Shown here piece after piece: positions 54,883 to 60,455 of a stretch of DNA of 64,000 bases. The DNA is from Thermoplasmatota archaeon. GTDB taxonomy: Archaea > Thermoplasmatota > Thermoplasmata > Thermoplasmatales > Thermoplasmataceae. The notes under the pieces were generated by a model, which had not been told where the DNA came from, did not search any database, and saw only the letters and a list, made by a program, of their open reading frames with translations. The position numbers and the translations under genes are program-made. Where the stretch lies: contig JAMCPQ010000023.1 in NCBI GenBank assembly GCA_023379825.1, positions 16-64,015 on the forward strand, written 5' to 3'. Position 1 is the first letter of the stretch. Each line of letters begins with the position of its first letter.

Positions 54883-55947
54883 TCAGAGAACCCTGTCTTT
54901 CTTGCCCACGTATTCCGATGAAGGGCGGATCAGTTTGTTATCGCTCAGCTGCTCTTCATAGTGGGCCCACCACCCGAAGACCCTGGCAGCAGCAAATATT
55001 GCGGTGTACAGGTCCTGCGGTATTCCAAGCTGATCCATGAGGATGGCAGCATAGAAATCCAGGTTTGCAGGAAGGTGCTTTTTCTCCCATACCCTCGCCT
55101 CTATTGCCTCAGCTATCCTGAGCTCCTTCGAGTCCGGGTTCAGTTCCTTCATCAGCTGTTTGACAAGCTGTGCACGCGGGTCCTTCTGCTTATAAACCCT
55201 GTGCCCGAACCCCATTACCTTCTTTCCCGACTCAAGCTGGGAATCAACAAATTTCACAGCTTCCTCCTCATTCCTGAAGCTCTTGAAGAAATCCAGTATC
55301 TCAGCATTAGCTCCGCCATGGAGAGGACCCTTCAGGGTTCCCAGGGCGCTGGTGAATGCAGAAGCCGGATCAGTGAGAGTTGATGCAGCGACTCTTAGAA
55401 CAAATGTGGAAGCGTTGAACTCATGTTCCATGTAAAGGATCATCAGTTTTGAAAGGAATTCCGATTTTCTGGAATCTGAATTTCCTGTTATCATCTGGTA
55501 GAATCTTCCGCTGTAAGTTGGAGCATCTGAGTTTCCAACCTTTTTACCAGTGACGGAGGCATATGAATGGGCAATTATGCCGGGAACCTTGGAAATGATC
55601 TCAGGCAGCATATGGGATGCATCCGCAGTGCTGTATGGATAGAGAGATATCATTGATCTCAGATTCTTCATTATATCTCTCTCCTTTAGCAGATCAATAA
55701 CTTTGAGTACACGGGAATCTATCTCACCGTTCTTAACCAGCATTTCATTGAATTCCTTCAGCTGGTTTCTGTCAGGTAGATCACCATGTACTATGAGATA
55801 TGCAACTTCCTCGAATGTCTTTTTACTGACAAGATCAACTGTCTTGTAACCTCTGTAGACCAGATTCCCTTCAGCATCAGTTGTGCATATTGCAGTCTTG
55901 TCAACTATAACTCCTACCAGTCCCTTTGGAACACTTATCTCAGTCAT
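54883..55947 (-). CDS. prpC: 2-methylcitrate synthase / citrate synthase
   Basis: EHEFNAST, KGPLHGGAN, GFGHRVY, NLDFY; operon with prpB and prpD. Confidence 0.88.
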   Translation of the reverse strand: MTEISVPKGLVGVIVDKTAICTTDAEGNLVYRGYKTVDLVSKKTFEEVAYLIVHGDLPDRNQLKEFNEMLVKNGEIDSRVLKVIDLLKERDIMKNLRSMISLYPYSTADASHMLPEIISKVPGIIAHSYASVTGKKVGNSDAPTYSGRFYQMITGNSDSRKSEFLSKLMILYMEHEFNASTFVLRVAASTLTDPASAFTSALGTLKGPLHGGANAEILDFFKSFRNEEEAVKFVDSQLESGKKVMGFGHRVYKQKDPRAQLVKQLMKELNPDSKELRIAEAIEARVWEKKHLPANLDFYAAILMDQLGIPQDLYTAIFAAARVFGWWAHYEEQLSDNKLIRPSSEYVGKKDRVL

Positions 55948-56842
55948 TTTTTTCACCTTTCATGTTAAAGATATCTCTGTCGTCTTTCTCATATTCATCA
56001 TAGCCTATAACCTCATAAAACTGCTTTCTTGTCATGAGGTTTCCAATGAAGTTTCGCTGAGTGCCATCCTTCAGGAGGCTTTCATATGTTTCTTTAAGCG
56101 ATCTCAGGGCTACCCTGAATCCCGTCAGAGGGAATATCACTGCGCTGTAACCTGCAGCTTTCAGTTCCTTTGCTGAGAGAAGAGGGCTCTTTCCAAACTC
56201 AGTCATGTTTGCAAGGAGGGGAATCCTTACCTTCGATGAAAATTCCCGGAATTCTTCAACAGACTCCAGAGCTTCAGTGAAAATCATGTCGGCACCGCAC
56301 TTTGCGTAATATTTTGCCCTCTCAATTGCATCATCCAGGCCGTTCACCGATCTGGCGTCAGTCCTTGCAATTATCATGAAATCAGGATTGTGTCTTGACG
56401 ATATAGCCGTCATTATCTTCTTTCCCATTTCCTCTGTTTCTATGACCTTCTTTCCATTAAGGTGTCCGCACCTCTTGGGAAGTACCTGGTCTTCCAGATG
56501 AATGGCAGATGCACCTGCATCCTCCAGTACCCTGACGGTTCTCATCACGTTAATCGCTTCTCCGAAGCCGGTGTCGGCATCTACTATCAGGGGCAGTCTG
56601 GAAACTGAGGTTATTCTCCTGGTCTCATCGGCAACTTCAGTCAGTGTGGTTATGGAGAGATCCGGCAGGCCCATTGCTCCGGCAACACCGGAGCCTGAAA
56701 GATAAATGGCCCTGAATCCTGAATGCTGTGCAAGAAGCGCACTGATACCGTTGAAAACCCCTGCAGCTTCGACAAACCCTTCTGAAAGAATCTTCCTCAA
56801 TCCAGAAGGTCCTATATTGTGGTTATCCCTTAAAGTGGACAT
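55940..56842 (-). CDS. prpB: 2-methylisocitrate lyase
   Basis: DADTGFG, KRCGHL, ARTDA, ANMTEFG. Confidence 0.95.
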   Translation of the reverse strand: MSTLRDNHNIGPSGLRKILSEGFVEAAGVFNGISALLAQHSGFRAIYLSGSGVAGAMGLPDLSITTLTEVADETRRITSVSRLPLIVDADTGFGEAINVMRTVRVLEDAGASAIHLEDQVLPKRCGHLNGKKVIETEEMGKKIMTAISSRHNPDFMIIARTDARSVNGLDDAIERAKYYAKCGADMIFTEALESVEEFREFSSKVRIPLLANMTEFGKSPLLSAKELKAAGYSAVIFPLTGFRVALRSLKETYESLLKDGTQRNFIGNLMTRKQFYEVIGYDEYEKDDRDIFNMKGEKND

Positions 56843-58157
56843 CAGATATCACTTCCATTAGCTCCCTCACAGATACCTTCTCCAGTCTCCTTGCAACATT
56901 CATCAGGATCTTTGAATTGTCGTCCCCCATGACCTTTCTTCCCTTTTCCTGCAAATCATCCCATGTGTATGGCTTCCTGTGATGACCCTTGGGGACATCC
57001 ATTTCTCTTTCAAATTTGCCTGAGGAAGTCTCCACGACCATCTTCACAGGGAGGTATTCGGGATACATCTTGTTGAACCGCTCAGTCACAACGTATTTTG
57101 AATGGTCAATAACATTCAGTATTTTGCTGTCCTTCAGGAAATTCTCTTCATATGATCCAGGCCCCGGAGAACCATATACAAGAGAGTATGCCACTATATA
57201 CGGCATGCTGTGATCAGCTGTTTCCCTTGTTCTTGGCCTTAATTTTTCAGGGTCCTTAATTATTATGTCATTTGCAACCTTGAATGTTTCCACATTGACG
57301 GTCTTAATCTCCCCCTTTATCTCATCATGTATTGAAGTAGCAGCTTCTGCAGCACTCATTGCATGATATTCAACCGGGTAATTCTTGATCATGGTCCTGA
57401 GAACAGCATCCCTCTTTGGCCTGATGTTCATCGGGCCTGAGACCTGCCTGAAAAATCCCATCTCTCCAGAGAATTCCGGTGAAGGGCCCGTGAATCCTTC
57501 TGCAGCAAGCAAAGTGCCGAATACACTGTTCCTGCATGCGTTTGCGGTTGTTGCCCCCTTCCACATGCTCAGCTCCCCAGCTCTAGTCTGGCGCATACTT
57601 ATGTTGTTGTTCAGGGAGAGACTTATAGCATGCTCAAACCTTCTCTGATCCAGATCAAGCAGCATTGAAAGTCCAGCTGCAGATGAAATTGAGATATATG
57701 TGACATGATCCCATCCTCTGTCTCTTATTGAAGACTCGTCAGAGAGATTTGCGGCAACATCATATGCCATGTTGGCTGCTCTTATAAGATCGGAGCCATT
57801 CATATCAAGGCTGTAGGCAAGTGCAATAAGTGGAGGAATATTGTCAGATGGATGCATTGCCTCCTTTGACAGGTAGGTATCATTGTAGTCAAGATATCTT
57901 GTCATAGTTCCATTTATGAATGCTGCAGTATCAACCGGGGCCTCGTCTGTGCTGAAATATATCCTGCCATTCCTTTTTCCTCGAGATGGCAGCAGGACTG
58001 ACCTTGCTATGCGAACTGGCTCAGCTTTCATTGCTCCATAGGCAGTAATAATGGAATCAGCAATCCTCTTCTTCATCTCATCGGTGCTTTTTTCGCTAAC
58101 CCCATGCTCCCTGAGGTCTATCATATGATCATACATGGCTTCCAAAGACGGTTCCAT
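56823..58157 (-). CDS. prpD: 2-methylcitrate dehydratase (MmgE/PrpD)
   Basis: RYLDYND, HPSDN, GWDH, LSMWKG, ETADHS. Confidence 0.93.
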   Translation of the reverse strand: MEPSLEAMYDHMIDLREHGVSEKSTDEMKKRIADSIITAYGAMKAEPVRIARSVLLPSRGKRNGRIYFSTDEAPVDTAAFINGTMTRYLDYNDTYLSKEAMHPSDNIPPLIALAYSLDMNGSDLIRAANMAYDVAANLSDESSIRDRGWDHVTYISISSAAGLSMLLDLDQRRFEHAISLSLNNNISMRQTRAGELSMWKGATTANACRNSVFGTLLAAEGFTGPSPEFSGEMGFFRQVSGPMNIRPKRDAVLRTMIKNYPVEYHAMSAAEAATSIHDEIKGEIKTVNVETFKVANDIIIKDPEKLRPRTRETADHSMPYIVAYSLVYGSPGPGSYEENFLKDSKILNVIDHSKYVVTERFNKMYPEYLPVKMVVETSSGKFEREMDVPKGHHRKPYTWDDLQEKGRKVMGDDNSKILMNVARRLEKVSVRELMEVISDVHFKG

Positions 58158-58312
58158 GATTGTGGTATCACATCTGGATATATAATTCGAAACTCCCTGA
58201 AACAATATGTGTGACTTATTGACATACTGGAAAAAATGTACTAAAGATTCATTTTTTTCCTAAATCAGTCTTGAAGCCGATTTGAGATAGCGAAATTACC
58301 TGTTGAAATAGA

Positions 58313-58442
58313 AAAAATTTATATATAGTTTACACAATCAATGGGATACTCTACCACGATGTAACCCGGATATACACTATCAAAGGTGGTACACCGGTAA
58401 AACATTCTGGTGATGTTTGACGCTTTCACGAGAGGTGAATAA
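58313..58442 (+). promoter_or_regulatory. BRE/TATA box, imperfect direct repeats and ~90-nt leader of the actin gene
   Basis: AAAAA-TTTATATA; TACACAATCAATGG (58331) and TACACTATCAAAGG (58373); SD GAGGTGA at 58432. Confidence 0.55.
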
Positions 58443-59423
58443 TTGATAGTATTGGGAGTAGACTTGGGATATGGTGACACAAAAGTTGTTGGTCCTGATT
58501 CTGGAAGGGCTAAATTTCCATCCAGATGGGCAGCTACAGAGGCGAAGAACTGGGGAATAGGGGGATCTTCTACAATCCTCACTATAAATGACAGTGATCC
58601 GTTCTTCTTCGGTGATGATGCAACAGGAGCTGGGGTAAGGGAACCCCAGGGAGATGGAAGACTTTCGGACCCTGACTCCCTTCCGCTTCTGGCAGGTGCA
58701 TTGTGGATGAGCGGCGCCGGAAAGGATGGTAATAAGGCTGACATCGTCCTTGGCAGCGGAACTCCCCTGGGAACATTTGAACATGAACTGAACGCAGCAA
58801 AGGAATACCTTCAGGGCAAGGAATTCACAATCAAATCAGTGTCAGGTGAAACAAGGACTTTCAATATAACAAAACTGATCATGAGACCACAGGGAGTGGG
58901 GGCAGCCCTTTATCTTCTGGACAAGGGTATGCTCAAGGCACAGTACGGATATGGTGTGGTGGTCGATATTGGTTCAAGGACAACTGATGTCCTGACTGTA
59001 AACCTGAAGAACATGGAACCTGTGGTTGAAATGTCATTCAGTATTCAGGCAGGTGTCGGCGATCTTGTATCAGGAATCTCAAAGGCAATTGCCAAAGAGA
59101 CTGGCTTCATAGTGCCAAACGATGTTGCCAGAGAGGCAATAAGCCAGACTGTACTCTTCAAGCAGCGGGAAGTTGGTGGTCCCAAGGTTTCTGAACCAAT
59201 CATGGCGAACCTTGCCAACAGGATCCTTGACAAACTCAGGGAGAACCTAAGAGAGGAACTGGACAGAATAACCGCTCTGATACCAGTAGGTGGAGGGTCA
59301 TCCCTTATTGGTGACAGGCTTGAGAAACTTGCTCCAGGTGCTATGGTGAAGATTCCCCAGGAGGATATTCAGTTCGCCAATGCCCTTGGATACAAGGATG
59401 CCGCAGCCAGGTCATCAAACTGA
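58443..59423 (+). CDS. ParM/StbA-like actin-fold ATPase (Ta0583 family)
   Basis: GVDLGYGDTK, PQG, VDIGSRTTD, VGGG, FANALG; closely resembles T. acidophilum Ta0583 as I recall it. Confidence 0.95.
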   Translation: MIVLGVDLGYGDTKVVGPDSGRAKFPSRWAATEAKNWGIGGSSTILTINDSDPFFFGDDATGAGVREPQGDGRLSDPDSLPLLAGALWMSGAGKDGNKADIVLGSGTPLGTFEHELNAAKEYLQGKEFTIKSVSGETRTFNITKLIMRPQGVGAALYLLDKGMLKAQYGYGVVVDIGSRTTDVLTVNLKNMEPVVEMSFSIQAGVGDLVSGISKAIAKETGFIVPNDVAREAISQTVLFKQREVGGPKVSEPIMANLANRILDKLRENLREELDRITALIPVGGGSSLIGDRLEKLAPGAMVKIPQEDIQFANALGYKDAAARSSN

Positions 59424-59494
59424 CCCGGTTAGCATATATTTTTTTATATGTCTCCTGTATGCATTCTGGTCGCCAACGGTTAGGATGAACCAAA

Positions 59495-59884
59495 ATGCCC
59501 GAAGATGATATACCTGATGAGGATCAGGAAGACAGCGGCCAGGAGACCTACTCTCTTGAGCTTACAAAATCTGAATTTATAGCCATTAGCCTTTTGCAGA
59601 GAGAGGGTGAAACTCTGAAGGATACCATCATGCGTGTTATTCAGGAGAATATGGAATACGGGGCGATGAAGGATATTCTTCAGACCATTGACGGAAGAAT
59701 TTCAGACCTGTCCAAGAAATACAAACTTTCACAGTCTTCCATAATCAATTTCAAGTATGATGTTCAGGAAGGTCTCAGGATTCCAGAAGAATTGAGGTCA
59801 TCAGATGACAAGGCCAAAAAACCGGAAGCTCTCAAGCTCCAGTTGGAGAAGAAATGGGCGGAACTGGAAAAGGGCCGAAAATAA
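59495..59884 (+). CDS. Small putative ribbon-helix-helix + coiled-coil protein (ParR-like adaptor candidate)
   Basis: Strand TYSLEL, helix, GETLKDTIMRVI helix, heptad segment, C-terminal amphipathic helix. Confidence 0.6.
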   Translation: MPEDDIPDEDQEDSGQETYSLELTKSEFIAISLLQREGETLKDTIMRVIQENMEYGAMKDILQTIDGRISDLSKKYKLSQSSIINFKYDVQEGLRIPEELRSSDDKAKKPEALKLQLEKKWAELEKGRK

Positions 59885-60010
59885 GGGCACAGCCATTTCC
59901 ACAATAAATGGTTCCTGAAATTCTTGAAAAGATTATATATCCATGTGAAATGTCAGCAAACTGTTGTTTCAACTTGAAATAGCGGATATTTACAGGTGAG
60001 AAGTGAATTT

Positions 60011-60178
60011 ATGAGATACAAGGAAAACTGTTCATCATGTGGCGTAGGCCTCGTTGACCCGGGATATTCAATATTCGAATGCCCTCAGTGCGGTGAAGAG
60101 CTGATCGGCAGATGCAAGAACTGCAGGGAACATTCTACAAGATACACATGCAGCAAGTGCTCCTTTGTCGGGCCGTAA
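60011..60178 (+). CDS. Small zinc-ribbon protein (DUF1610/HVO_2753-like)
   Basis: CSSC, CPQCG, RCKNCR, CSKC..GP; conserved position before EF-1beta. Confidence 0.92.
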   Translation: MRYKENCSSCGVGLVDPGYSIFECPQCGEELIGRCKNCREHSTRYTCSKCSFVGP

Positions 60179-60188
60179 GGTGGTAATG

Positions 60189-60455
60189 ATGGGGGACGTT
60201 GCTGTTGTAATGCGTATACTTCCTGAGGACGCAGACAGGGATATTAACGCCATAATGGGTGCTGCAAAGGACAGACTGAAGGATAAGTGTACAATTAATA
60301 AGGTTGAAGTTCAGGAGGTAGCATTCGGCCTGAAGGCCGTCAGGCTTGAGATCATTATCCCGGATGAGGAGGGGAAAATTGACAGTGTAGAGGCAGTACT
60401 CAGCGGGATAGAAGGAGTAAGTCAGGTTGACACCGAGGACATGACTCTTGTTTAG
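60189..60455 (+). CDS. ef1b: Elongation factor 1-beta
   Basis: MGDVAV..RILP, EVAFGLKA, IEGVSQV. Confidence 0.95.
   Translation: MGDVAVVMRILPEDADRDINAIMGAAKDRLKDKCTINKVEVQEVAFGLKAVRLEIIIPDEEGKIDSVEAVLSGIEGVSQVDTEDMTLV

What the first reader, a model, noticed from the sequence alone, without database searches (positions are those of the whole stretch)
58443..59884. Candidate chromosomal ParMRC-like (type II) segregation or cytoskeletal system in an archaeon
Seen: an actin-fold ATPase followed, co-oriented, by a 129-aa protein with ParR-like architecture: an RHH pattern (TYSLEL-helix-GETLKDTIMRVI), a coiled coil, a linker and a terminal amphipathic helix (EALKLQLEKKWAEL). Phased repeats lie at the promoter. 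The pair sits among housekeeping genes with no plasmid, phage or integrase genes in the window. Known: Ta0583 is ParM-like and polymerises, but I know of no assigned partner or cellular role; ParR binds parC through its RHH and ParM through a C-terminal helix; characterised archaeal segregation systems (SegAB, AspA-ParB-ParA) use Walker ATPases. Inference: a domesticated actin-based partition or DNA-anchored cytoskeleton. Caveats: the RHH strand lacks Lys/Arg, the N-terminus is very acidic, and a T-tract separates the genes.
Basis: partly seen in the sequence, partly recalled or inferred. Interest (0 to 1): 0.82.

Follow-up and report, generated by a model that had tools for sequence, protein, structure and literature searches.

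The report
Archaeal actin with ParR-like partner
A Thermoplasma-type archaeal actin gene is followed, here and in almost every relative that has it, by a small unnamed gene whose conserved tail is predicted to plug into the actin, which gives this long-orphaned actin a testable partner, although the partner looks poorly suited to bind DNA.

Summary
Both genes are real. ORF 58443-59423 is an orthologue of Ta0583 (PDB 2fsj, E 1e-133). ORF 59495-59884 belongs to an unannotated family of only 18 clusters among 1.84 billion representatives. It lies directly downstream of the actin at 44 of 46 loci in 103 Thermoplasmataceae genomes, and the pair is duplicated together in one genus.

The partner has three parts:
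- an N-terminal module distantly related to archaeal RHH-type VapB antitoxins (hhalign 86.5%);
- a linker of 39-159 residues;
- an invariant C-terminal L-K-x-x-L-E-x-x-W helix.

A controlled complex prediction puts that helix in the actin's hydrophobic groove (ipSAE 0.83, best control 0.00). Actin contact residues D319 and R323 are invariant where the partner exists and replaced where it is missing. Related actins on conjugative elements of acidophilic Bacillota carry basic RHH-like adaptors with the same tail motif.

Against a true ParMRC system:
- the archaeal RHH core is acidic (mean net charge -2.6);
- 8 of 20 genera lack both genes.

Verdict: a domesticated ParM/ParR-like actin-adaptor pair, more likely cytoskeletal than DNA-segregating. 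The scan reached the same reading earlier on another genome (e1-3989127).

The parts
58319..58328 (+). TATA-box-like element (TTTATATATA) of the actin promoter
   Evidence: It aligns with an invariant TTTAAAT, preceded by a conserved CGAAAT, in 16 upstream regions of sister genera. It lies about 115 nt upstream of the start codon, which implies a long leader.
58331..58344 (+).
   Evidence: A CAAT core sits 13-17 nt after the start of the TATA box in genera g1, g16, g35, g12 and g4. In several it forms a CAATTG or ACAATTGT palindrome.
58373..58386 (+). Second copy of the repeat (12/14 match, 42 bp from the first)
   Evidence: It is present but conserved only within the genus (L041, L075). The pair is not beyond chance (8% of shuffles).
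58432..58438 (+). Shine-Dalgarno-like GAGGTGA ahead of the TTG start
   Evidence: Read from the sequence. AGGTGA is conserved at this place in all aligned relatives.
58443..59423 (+). Ta0583-type actin-like ATPase (326 aa)
   Evidence: PDB 2fsj E 1.3e-133; pCBH ParM E 5e-11. Pfam ALP_N and MreB-like_C. It is 55-79% identical to 21 family orthologues and paralogues. The predicted partner-contact residues are 112-116, 146-166, 186-193 and 319-324.
59433..59449 (+). AT-rich spacer with a run of seven T (59438-59444) between the two genes: partial terminator or internal promoter, undecided
   Evidence: Read from the sequence. In other genera the two genes are 0-86 nt apart and overlap or nearly touch in g4, g12 and g13, so an operon is the ancestral arrangement.
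59495..59884 (+). Actin partner (129 aa), an unnamed family of ParR-like design
   Evidence: It lies downstream of the actin at 44 of 46 loci. Only 18 clusters match among 1.84 billion representatives. Every named member is called 'hypothetical protein'. No member matches a Pfam family at or above its gathering score; the sub-threshold matches are scattered.
59495..59545 (+). Acidic, variable N-terminal tail (residues 1-17, net charge -9)
   Evidence: Its length is 3-29 residues across the family, and only 3 in Thermoplasma.
59546..59647 (+). RHH-like core (residues 18-51): strand xLxL, helix, G-E-[ST] turn, helix with a conserved Arg
   Evidence: hhalign against 25 PF02697 domains gives Prob 86.5%, E 4.6e-6 over 32 columns. 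The A1 profile reaches the PF02697/DUF7557 proteins P0017 (E 1e-7) and P0018 (E 3.6e-4). Net charge is -1 to -4 in all 17 members.
59615..59767 (+). Long helix (residues 41-91) that continues RHH helix 2; holds the invariant E54
   Evidence: AF2 model, pLDDT 72-85. Structure searches match only coiled coils and MazE-type antitoxins at Z 5.3-5.7.
59768..59818 (+). Low-confidence linker (residues 92-108)
   Evidence: pLDDT is 55-59 here. The region between the N-module and the C-terminal motif varies from 39 to 159 residues in the family.
59819..59869 (+). C-terminal actin-binding helix (residues 109-125) with L113, K114, L117, E118 and W121
   Evidence: E118 and W121 are invariant and K114 nearly so. 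All high-confidence contacts of the complex model fall in residues 109-125. No other of the 9339 open frames of 50 aa or more in the genome carries the motif near its C-terminus.

Best explanation
The two genes form a conserved actin-adaptor module of ParM/ParR design that has become a chromosomal, vertically inherited feature of Thermoplasmataceae.

Shown. The 326-aa protein is the Ta0583 orthologue, a ParM-like actin whose Thermoplasma relative polymerises in vitro (as reported in the literature). The 129-aa protein nearly always accompanies it.

Predicted in silico. The partner's invariant C-terminal amphipathic helix (L-K-x-x-L-E-x-x-W) inserts into the hydrophobic groove between actin subdomains IA and IIA. 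This is the site used by ParR on ParM and by arcadin-2 on crenactin.

Inferred. The N-terminal RHH-like module makes the partner a dimer, so each partner presents two groove-binding tails on flexible linkers. Such a dimer would act at filament ends or on monomers, by nucleating, capping and stabilising, or sequestering, and so control where and when filaments grow. The RHH core has turned acidic, no centromere-like repeat array accompanies the genes, and the module is dispensable in many genera. I therefore think the cargo is probably not DNA. The system would then be a domesticated partition machine working as a cytoskeletal or filament-regulating module, as CorMR and FcmBC are in cyanobacteria. 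The pair most likely shares ancestry with mobile-element cassettes like those now found on conjugative elements of acidophilic Bacillota.
For: Identity of the actin.

Synteny. All 13 first hits of the small protein lie directly downstream of the actin. In 103 genomes of the family the actin was found in 50 and the partner in 42. The partner is adjacent at 44 of 46 loci, and the other two are at contig breaks. Genus g11 has two actin-partner pairs in each of its 4 genomes.

Architecture and invariant tail.

Complex prediction: ipSAE 0.83, 0.82 and 0.84 against a best control of 0.00. The runs agree in at least 82% of contacts and the partner's pLDDT is 62. The mark was reached by 58 of 80 solved complexes and 2 of 110 mismatched pairs. 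Contacts run between actin 146-166 plus 319-324 and partner L113, K114, L117, E118 and W121.

Covariation. D319 and R323 of the actin are invariant in 17 of 17 partner-bearing actins and replaced in 5 of 5 partner-less ones. The bacterial relatives have L or W at position 319 (one has D), and their adaptors have L or V where the archaeal tail has K.

The motif is unique in the genome.

RHH link. COG1753/PF02697 is a predicted RHH family (PMC2701414). Language-model neighbours are all of the RHH clan, which is only a lead.

Acidified core. No repeat array.

Bacterial cassettes lie next to a T4SS coupling protein, ParB and a weak MobL-like relaxase match.

Precedents for groove binding and for repurposed ParMR pairs: PMC5173319, bioRxiv 10.1101/2025.06.27.661541, PMC12645912.
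Against: - Nothing here is experimental.
- The complex score is the model's own confidence. Peptide-in-groove complexes of ParM, crenactin and actin are solved, so the model may be reproducing a general likeness.
- The dimeric RHH fold was not modelled. The monomer model shows no strand, and structure searches were inconclusive.
- Acidity is only an indirect argument against DNA binding. The G-x-[ST] turn typical of RHH DNA binders is retained.
- A conserved element between the TATA box and the expected transcription start could be an operator for this very protein.
- All 3 genomes of genus g14 (which includes Acidiplasma aeolicum) keep an intact actin without the partner, so the actin is not strictly dependent on it.
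- The partner-less actins may represent a single evolutionary event (AU test p 0.11), so the covariation rests on one or two events.
- The archaeal and bacterial adaptors show no profile-level homology (Prob 0.24). The shared tail could therefore be convergent.
- What binding does to filaments is wholly inferred.
Confidence: 0.55

Rival explanations
1. This is a true ParMRC-type DNA segregation system. The partner binds a centromere-like site through its RHH ribbon, and growing actin filaments push or position the chromosome, or a replicon that once carried the genes.
For: - The N-module is related to RHH-type DNA-binding antitoxins and keeps the G-x-[ST] turn (PMC2701414).
- The design matches ParR.
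- Relatives of the actin sit in conjugative elements with basic RHH-like adaptors.
ParR commonly autoregulates through parC.
Against: - The RHH core has net charge -1 to -4 in all 17 members, against a mean of +2.0 in PF02697 and +1 to +5 in the bacterial adaptors.
- The strand has no conserved Lys, Arg or Asn and often carries Asp or Glu.
- There is no iteron array here or at orthologous loci, and the single repeat pair occurs in 8% of shuffles.
- Neither gene was found in 8 of 20 genera of the family sampled, and the partner was not found in two further genera that keep the actin.
- No mobile-element genes flank the archaeal copies, including the second pairs of g11.
Confidence: 0.2
2. The partner is purely a negative regulator, a monomer sequesterer or depolymeriser like arcadin-2 or thymosin beta-4. 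Its tail competes with the next subunit for the groove, and the N-terminal module serves only stability or dosage control.
For: - The tail is predicted to occupy the groove that forms the longitudinal filament contact in actins.
- Arcadin-2 uses a Trp-containing C-terminal helix in this way and depolymerises crenactin (PMC5173319).
- Cb-cParR of Clostridium botulinum acts as a depolymerisation factor for mature filaments (bioRxiv 10.1101/2024.09.12.612785).
- The T-tract and a possible internal promoter would allow separate dosage of the partner.
Against: - A simple sequesterer would not need a conserved dimerisation module. Yet the N-module is the best conserved part after the tail.
- A linker varying from 39 to 159 residues suggests a tether rather than a compact inhibitor.
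- No sequence relation to arcadin-2 or any other family appeared in the library-wide profile search.
Confidence: 0.15
3. The small protein does not bind the actin. It is an RHH-type transcription factor or orphan antitoxin-like protein that merely shares an operon or neighbourhood with the actin gene.
For: - The only sequence relatives outside the family are VapB-type antitoxin-like modules.
- Seven of 44 blind neighbour pairs passed the tool's own test, by its description, so passes can be false.
- A T-tract separates the genes here.
Against: - The protein is adjacent to the actin at 44 of 46 loci across genera whose other neighbours all differ.
- The pair was duplicated together.
- The tail motif is invariant and unique in the genome.
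- The complex score is 0.83 against 0.00.
- Contact residues D319 and R323 change exactly where the partner is missing.
- No PIN or RelE toxin gene is adjacent.
Confidence: 0.06

Closest known systems
ParMRC type II partition systems (plasmid R1, pSK41, pCBH)
   Same: An actin-like ATPase of the ParM/ALP superfamily (pCBH ParM E 5e-11) is followed by a small adaptor. The adaptor has an N-terminal RHH-type module, a flexible linker and a C-terminal helix predicted to enter the groove between subdomains IA and IIA.
   Different: The pair is chromosomal and vertically inherited in an archaeal family. No parC-like repeat array exists. The adaptor's RHH core is acidic. The adaptor matches no Pfam family at or above its gathering score, so no curated ParR model is matched; ParR proteins themselves were not compared directly.
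CorM/CorR of Anabaena (bioRxiv 10.1101/2025.06.27.661541) and FcmB/FcmC of Nostoc punctiforme (PMC12645912)
   Same: A chromosomal ParM/ParR-derived pair repurposed as a cytoskeleton. CorR is reported to have lost DNA binding while keeping the C-terminal peptide that binds CorM. FcmB and FcmC interact and control cell shape.
   Different: CorR gained an N-terminal amphipathic helix for membrane binding. The archaeal partner instead has a variable acidic tail, or none at all in Thermoplasma, and no evident membrane-binding element. The hosts are wall-bearing bacteria, not archaea. No homology between these adaptors was tested.
Crenactin and arcadin-2 of Pyrobaculum (PMC5173319)
   Same: An archaeal actin is regulated by a neighbouring gene product whose conserved Trp-containing C-terminal helix binds the hydrophobic groove.
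   Different: Crenactin is a eukaryote-like actin, whereas this one is ParM-like. Arcadin-2 has no reported RHH module. No sequence relation was found: the family profile reaches only 18 clusters.
Ta0583 of Thermoplasma acidophilum (PDB 2fsj, 2fsk, 2fsn)
   Same: The window's actin is its orthologue (E 1.3e-133). The Thermoplasma genomes carry the same partner gene 13-14 nt downstream (loci L028-L030 and L032).
   Different: No paper in the searched library names a partner for Ta0583. From memory, unverified here: Roeben et al. 2006 proposed a plasmid ParM origin for Ta0583 but described no adaptor.
Bacterial chromosome-encoded ParMRC cassettes (Dh-cParM1, Cb-cParMR; bioRxiv 10.1101/2024.09.12.612785)
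   Same: ParM-like genes with ParR-like neighbours lie on chromosomes and are conserved within a genus. Dh-cParM1 (PDB 8x1i) is a weak sequence hit of the actin (E 6e-6).
   Different: Those cassettes are described with parC-like palindromic repeats. Here none is conserved, and the host is an archaeon.
COG1753 / PF02697 (DUF217) archaeal VapB-type antitoxins
   Same: The N-module aligns over strand, helix, G-E-S turn and helix (hhalign Prob 86.5%). Both have the design of an RHH head plus a partner-binding C-terminal tail.
   Different: The Pfam model itself does not hit any of the 17 members or the genome. The neighbour is an actin, not a PIN or RelE toxin. The core is acidic instead of basic.

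Membership tests
Ta0583 / ParM-like actins (Pfam ALP_N + MreB-like_C) | Sequence membership and actin-fold nucleotide-binding core | tested here: met
   ALP_N 2.3e-30 and MreB-like_C 1.1e-45, both above cut-off. PDB 2fsj E 1.3e-133 over the full length.
Ta0583 / ParM-like actins (Pfam ALP_N + MreB-like_C) | ATP-dependent polymerisation into filaments | not testable with these tools
   Polymerisation is reported for T. acidophilum Ta0583, as summarised in PMC2651865. It is inferred here from the close similarity to that protein (alignment).
ParMRC type II partition system | Small adaptor gene next to the actin gene and conserved with it | tested here: met
   Adjacent and co-oriented at 44 of 46 loci in 103 genomes, and duplicated together in genus g11.
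ParMRC type II partition system | The adaptor's C-terminal peptide binds the ParM groove between subdomains IA and IIA | tested here: met
   In silico only. ipSAE 0.83 against a best control of 0.00; runs agree in at least 82% of contacts; partner pLDDT 62. The mark was reached by 58 of 80 solved complexes and 2 of 110 mismatched pairs. Contact residues D319 and R323 covary with presence of the partner. Assigning the contacts to the IA/IIA groove rests on homology to actin's Q137-helix and C-terminal helix.
ParMRC type II partition system | The adaptor's N-terminus is a ribbon-helix-helix dimer | tested here: inconclusive
   For: hhalign Prob 86.5% to PF02697, profile hits to PF02697/DUF7557 proteins, and a G-E-[ST] turn. 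Not settled: the monomer AF2 model shows no strand, Foldseek and VIA-align gave no clear match, and a dimer could not be modelled.
ParMRC type II partition system | A centromere (parC) of repeated adaptor-binding sites next to the genes | tested here: not met
   No repeat array at 58150-59520. The single 12/14 pair occurs in 8% of shuffles, and no orthologous upstream region has a pair above shuffles. Only a short promoter-proximal element is conserved.
ParMRC type II partition system | The adaptor binds DNA sequence-specifically | not testable with these tools
   A proxy argues against it. The RHH core has net charge -1 to -4 in 17 of 17 members, against +1 to +5 in the bacterial adaptors and a mean of +2.0 in PF02697.
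PF02697 / COG1753 VapB-type antitoxins | Match to the family model above its cut-off | tested here: not met
   No PF02697 hit for any of the 17 members or in the window's genome. The relation appears only at profile-profile level, so this is a distant relative and not a member.
PF02697 / COG1753 VapB-type antitoxins | Operon with a PIN or RelE toxin | tested here: not met
   The upstream gene is the actin. Downstream lie a zinc-finger protein and EF-1beta.
Arcadin-2 | Sequence homology to arcadin-2 of Thermoproteales | tested here: inconclusive
   The family profile found only 18 clusters, all of them this family or VapB-like modules. Arcadin-2 itself was not compared directly.

The most novel reading that the evidence does not exclude
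The partner still binds DNA through its acidified RHH-like dimer, for instance at the conserved promoter-proximal ACAAT-type element or at sites elsewhere. The pair would then be an actin-driven chromosome-positioning or segregation machine in wall-less archaea. That would be the first actin-based, rather than Walker-ATPase-based, chromosome segregation system in Archaea.
Probability: 0.17. Interest if true: 0.9.

Novelty: new variant of a known kind. Interest (0 to 1): 0.62.

Why it matters
Ta0583 has a crystal structure and polymerises in vitro, yet no partner or cellular role is named for it in any paper I could search. This work supplies three things:
- a specific, conserved and testable binding partner;
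- a predicted interface with named residues (partner L113, K114, L117, E118, W121; actin D319, R323);
- a natural control, namely lineages that lost the partner and changed those actin residues.

It also ties the archaeal actin to ParM/ParR-like cassettes on conjugative elements of bacteria from similar acidic habitats. That suggests a partition machine was domesticated in Archaea in parallel with the cyanobacterial CorMR and FcmBC systems. If the adaptor really has lost DNA binding, this would be a second, independent case of that transition, and in organisms without a cell wall, where a cytoskeletal role is of particular interest.

Tried and rejected
- Sequence search of the small protein and of its family profile against PDB chains found only coiled-coil noise. 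P0017 and P0018 against PDB found nothing useful.
- A Pfam scan of all 17 members found no family.
- Foldseek against PDB gave no match at E <= 0.001. The top weak rows were the SeqA N-terminal domain.
- VIA-align wide gave MazE antitoxins at Z 5.7, tied with dozens of coiled coils, which is inconclusive.
- Folding P0017, a protein with four tandem copies of the related module, was meant to show whether the copies pair into RHH pseudo-dimers. The single-sequence model had pLDDT 34 and is unusable.
- Profile-profile comparison of the archaeal adaptors (A1) with the bacterial ones (A3) showed no homology (Prob 0.24). I therefore do not claim the adaptors are homologous, only that the tails are alike.
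- I looked for a replacement partner with a similar tail beside the partner-less Ferroplasma and Acidiplasma actins and found none.
- I tested whether the partner-less actins arose twice. The tree shows two clades, but the AU test does not reject a single clade (p 0.11), so independent events are not claimed.
- The sigma-70 promoter and intrinsic-terminator scan does not apply to an archaeon and was ignored.
- A toxin-antitoxin reading was considered and rejected, because no toxin gene is adjacent and the tail is predicted to bind the actin.
Full report
**The observation**

The window holds a 326-aa ORF at 58443-59423 (+) with a TTG start behind GAGGTGA. Seventy-one nucleotides downstream lies a co-oriented 129-aa ORF at 59495-59884. 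The first ORF matches Pfam ALP_N and MreB-like_C above their cut-offs. It aligns over its full length with Ta0583 of Thermoplasma acidophilum (PDB 2fsj, E 1.3e-133), and the next hits are plasmid ParMs (pCBH ParM, E 5e-11). The small ORF matches no Pfam family above cut-off and has no relative among solved structures.

The neighbours are housekeeping genes. PrpD lies upstream, and the two ORFs beyond it look like PrpB and citrate synthase from their sequences, though I did not scan them. Downstream lie an HVO_2753-type zinc finger, EF-1beta and a glycosyltransferase. Large ORFs that are presumably the RNA polymerase subunits lie further upstream. The genome's single tyrosine integrase is on another contig.

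**Is the pairing real?**

A search of 101 genomes of the order with the small protein gave 13 hits, all in one family (f1). Every hit lay immediately downstream of a Ta0583 orthologue on the same strand.

Profiles of both proteins were then run over 103 genomes of that family. The actin was found in 50 genomes and the partner in 42. Of 46 partner loci, 44 are adjacent to an actin gene, and the other two sit at contig breaks. The partner was never found elsewhere in a genome.

All four genomes of genus g11 carry two actin genes, and each has its own partner gene. The two sets are mutually divergent, so the pair was duplicated as a unit. Genes beyond the pair differ from genus to genus, so only these two genes travel together. 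In some genera the gap between them is 0-14 nt (g4 Thermoplasma, g12, g13). The T-tract spacer seen here is therefore a local feature on an ancestral operon.

**Anatomy of the partner**

An alignment of 17 members (A1) shows three parts:
- a conserved N-module of about 45 residues, made of a strand-like x-L-x-L, a helix, a G-E-[ST] turn, and a helix with a nearly invariant Arg followed by an invariant Glu;
- a spacer of 39 to 159 residues;
- an invariant C-terminal motif L-K-x-x-L-E-x-x-W.

An AF2 monomer model (mean pLDDT 70.8) gives helix 25-34, a long helix 41-91 and helix 99-128, with low confidence between the last two.

The family is tiny. A profile search of 1.84 billion representative proteins found 18 clusters. 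The members that carry a name are all called 'hypothetical protein'. In the window's own genome, no other of 9339 open frames carries the tail motif near its C-terminus.

**Does it bind the actin?**

I gave the one available complex job to the actin (alignment A2) and residues 88-129 of the partner (alignment A1). The scores were ipSAE 0.83, 0.82 and 0.84, against 0.00 for all three controls. The runs agreed in at least 82% of contacts and the partner's pLDDT was 62. The mark was reached by 58 of 80 solved complexes and by 2 of 110 mismatched pairs in the tool's calibration.

The confident contacts join partner residues 109-125 (L113, K114, L117, E118, W121) to actin residues 112-116, 146-166, 186-193 and 319-324. 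By homology with actin, residues 146-166 (M-R-P-Q-G-V-G-A-A-L-Y-L-L) form the helix that follows the catalytic Gln, and residues 319-324 belong to the C-terminal helix. Together these line the hydrophobic groove between subdomains IA and IIA. ParR binds that site on ParM, and arcadin-2 binds it on crenactin with a Trp-containing C-terminal helix (PMC5173319). Because such complexes are solved, the pass may partly reflect learned likeness. It supports binding but does not show it.

**An independent check from natural variation**

Two genera keep the actin, but no partner was found in them with the profile. In g3, which includes a Ferroplasma MAG, 5 of 11 genomes have the actin. In g14, which includes Acidiplasma aeolicum, 3 of 3 have it. 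No substitute gene with a similar tail lies nearby.

Of the 25 predicted contact positions, D319 and R323 are invariant in all 17 partner-bearing actins. In all 5 partner-less actins they are replaced, by I or L at 319 and by E, Q, G or a gap at 323. D319 is predicted to touch K114 of the tail.

In g3 the actin is also decaying: it is broken in G043, carries stop codons in G055, and is reduced to a fragment in G035. The partner-less actins fall in two clades on the tree. An AU test does not reject a single clade (p 0.11), so this counts as one or two evolutionary events, not five.

**Where the module comes from**

A scan of one genome per prokaryotic species found the actin family outside Thermoplasmatales only in MAGs labelled Bacillota. 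By their isolate names these come from the same sampling series as several of the Thermoplasmata MAGs. The bacterial copies are 37-47% identical to the window's actin, and several occur per genome.

They sit beside a type IV secretion coupling protein (PF02534, 2e-41), a ParB (PF02195 and PF17762) and a weak MobL-like relaxase match, that is, in conjugative elements. Each of the ten examined is followed by a 85-125-aa ORF. That ORF has a basic strand-helix-helix N-terminus (for example L-Q-F-R-V-S-I-G-V-R-S), an Ala/Pro-rich linker and a C-terminal L-x-x-L-[ED]-x-x-[WFY] motif.

Where the archaeal tail has K at position -7 from the Trp and the actin has D319, the bacterial tails have L or V and their actins mostly have L or W. 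On the tree the archaeal actins form one clade (99/97), with one bacterial pair as its sister.

Profile-profile comparison finds no homology between the archaeal and bacterial adaptors as wholes (Prob 0.24). The shared tail may therefore be either retained or convergent.

**Is the N-module an RHH?**

The two weakest hits of the library-wide profile search are P0017 (E 1e-7) and P0018 (E 3.6e-4). They are members of Pfam DUF7557 and of VAPB_antitox PF02697.

I aligned 25 PF02697 domains taken from genomes of the phylum and compared them with residues 14-70 of the family. The result was hhalign Prob 86.5%, E 4.6e-6, over 32 columns spanning strand, helix, turn and helix. PF02697 (COG1753, DUF217) is an archaea-specific antitoxin family predicted to have the RHH fold (PMC2701414).

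Language-model neighbours of the module are all RHH-clan families, at scores of 0.81-0.85 that count only as a lead. Structure searches were inconclusive, and the attempt to fold a four-module relative failed. I rate an RHH-like dimer as likely, at about 0.75, but not shown.

**Is it a centromere-binding ParR?**

- Over the 34-residue RHH core, net charge is -1 to -4 (mean -2.6) in all 17 archaeal partners. It averages +2.0 in PF02697 domains and is +1 to +5 in the bacterial adaptors.
- The strand has no conserved basic or Asn residue and often carries Asp or Glu.
- No repeat array lies around the genes.
A pair of that quality arises in 8% of shuffles, and none of 20 orthologous upstream regions has a pair above shuffles.

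Aligning the upstream regions of the three closest genera does reveal a conserved promoter. It has CGAAAT, then TTTAAAT, then an ACAAT(T/C)(G/A) element 13-17 nt after the start of the TATA box. The last element is often palindromic (CAATTG, ACAATTGT) and overlaps the first repeat copy. It could be an operator, for this protein or for another. It is a single short site, not a parC.

Finally, neither gene was found in 8 of 20 genera sampled in the family. That is hard to square with an essential chromosome-segregation role.

**Synthesis**

The best-supported picture is a ParM/ParR-like actin-adaptor pair that has been domesticated on the chromosome of Thermoplasmataceae. The adaptor keeps the groove-binding tail and a dimerising RHH-like head. 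The head has lost the charge expected of a DNA binder.

This parallels CorMR of Anabaena, where a chromosomal ParR homologue is reported to have lost DNA binding and now organises a cortical cytoskeleton (bioRxiv 10.1101/2025.06.27.661541). It also parallels FcmBC of Nostoc (PMC12645912). Unlike CorR, this partner shows no N-terminal amphipathic helix.

What the bivalent adaptor does to filaments remains inference: it may nucleate, cap, stabilise, sequester, or tether them to an unknown cargo. No paper in the searched library names a partner for Ta0583. An earlier report of this scan on another genome (e1-3989127) reached the same general reading. I treated it as a lead only, and every point above was tested here.

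Noticed in passing
L085-L096 (Bacillota MAGs; e.g. L085:3001-4301, L089:1705-4264, L087:1160-4426): Ta0583-type actins that are 37-47% identical occur in several copies per genome in MAGs labelled Bacillota. They lie on conjugative elements (a weak MobL-like relaxase match, T4SS coupling protein, ParB). Each is followed by a basic RHH-like adaptor of 85-125 aa ending in L-x-x-L-[ED]-x-x-[WFY]. This could be the donor or the recipient pool of the archaeal module.
   Followed up: partly
L021, L022, L023, L027, L033, L065, L076; genomes G043, G035, G055, G145: The two genera that include Ferroplasma and Acidiplasma keep the actin without the partner, and D319 and R323 are replaced. In the first of them the actin is patchy (5 of 11 genomes) and broken or truncated in three genomes. 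G145 (g34) has a frameshifted actin next to an intact partner.
   Followed up: partly
L024-L026 with L036-L038; L078, L081 (uncultured archaeon ASS_A1, CP009479.1): Genus g11 carries two divergent actin-partner pairs per genome. Both sit among ordinary genes (an MFS transporter, a polysaccharide deacetylase, a phosphodiesterase; a DNA methylase at one locus).
   Followed up: partly
window 58206-58442 and upstream regions of L041-L055: The actin promoter lies 100-165 nt upstream of the start codon in genera g1, g16 and g35, which implies a long leader. A conserved CGAAAT...TTTAAAT...ACAAT(T/C)(G/A) arrangement is present. In Thermoplasma the TATA box lies only 46 nt upstream.
   Followed up: partly
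P0017 (255 aa, from the representative library): This protein consists of four tandem copies of the RHH-like module (DUF7557 4e-16, VAPB_antitox 5e-7). Its origin and context were not examined.
   Followed up: no
L093:2998-4390 (Thermogymnomonas acidicola JCM 13583): The actin reading frame is split into several overlapping pieces in this draft assembly, while the partner gene downstream (117 aa) is intact. This could be sequencing error or a pseudogene.
   Followed up: no
window 59996-60455: A 60-aa HVO_2753-type double zinc-ribbon protein overlaps by 14 nt the start of a 96-aa EF-1beta-domain gene. This tight pair lies just downstream of the partner gene. It is not conserved next to the actin in other genera.
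   Followed up: no
window 54883-58205 (- strand): A run of three minus-strand ORFs diverges from the actin gene: a 357-aa and a 300-aa ORF that look like citrate synthase and a PrpB-like methylisocitrate lyase (read from their sequences, not scanned), and PrpD (Pfam). Together they suggest a methylcitrate-cycle cluster.
   Followed up: no
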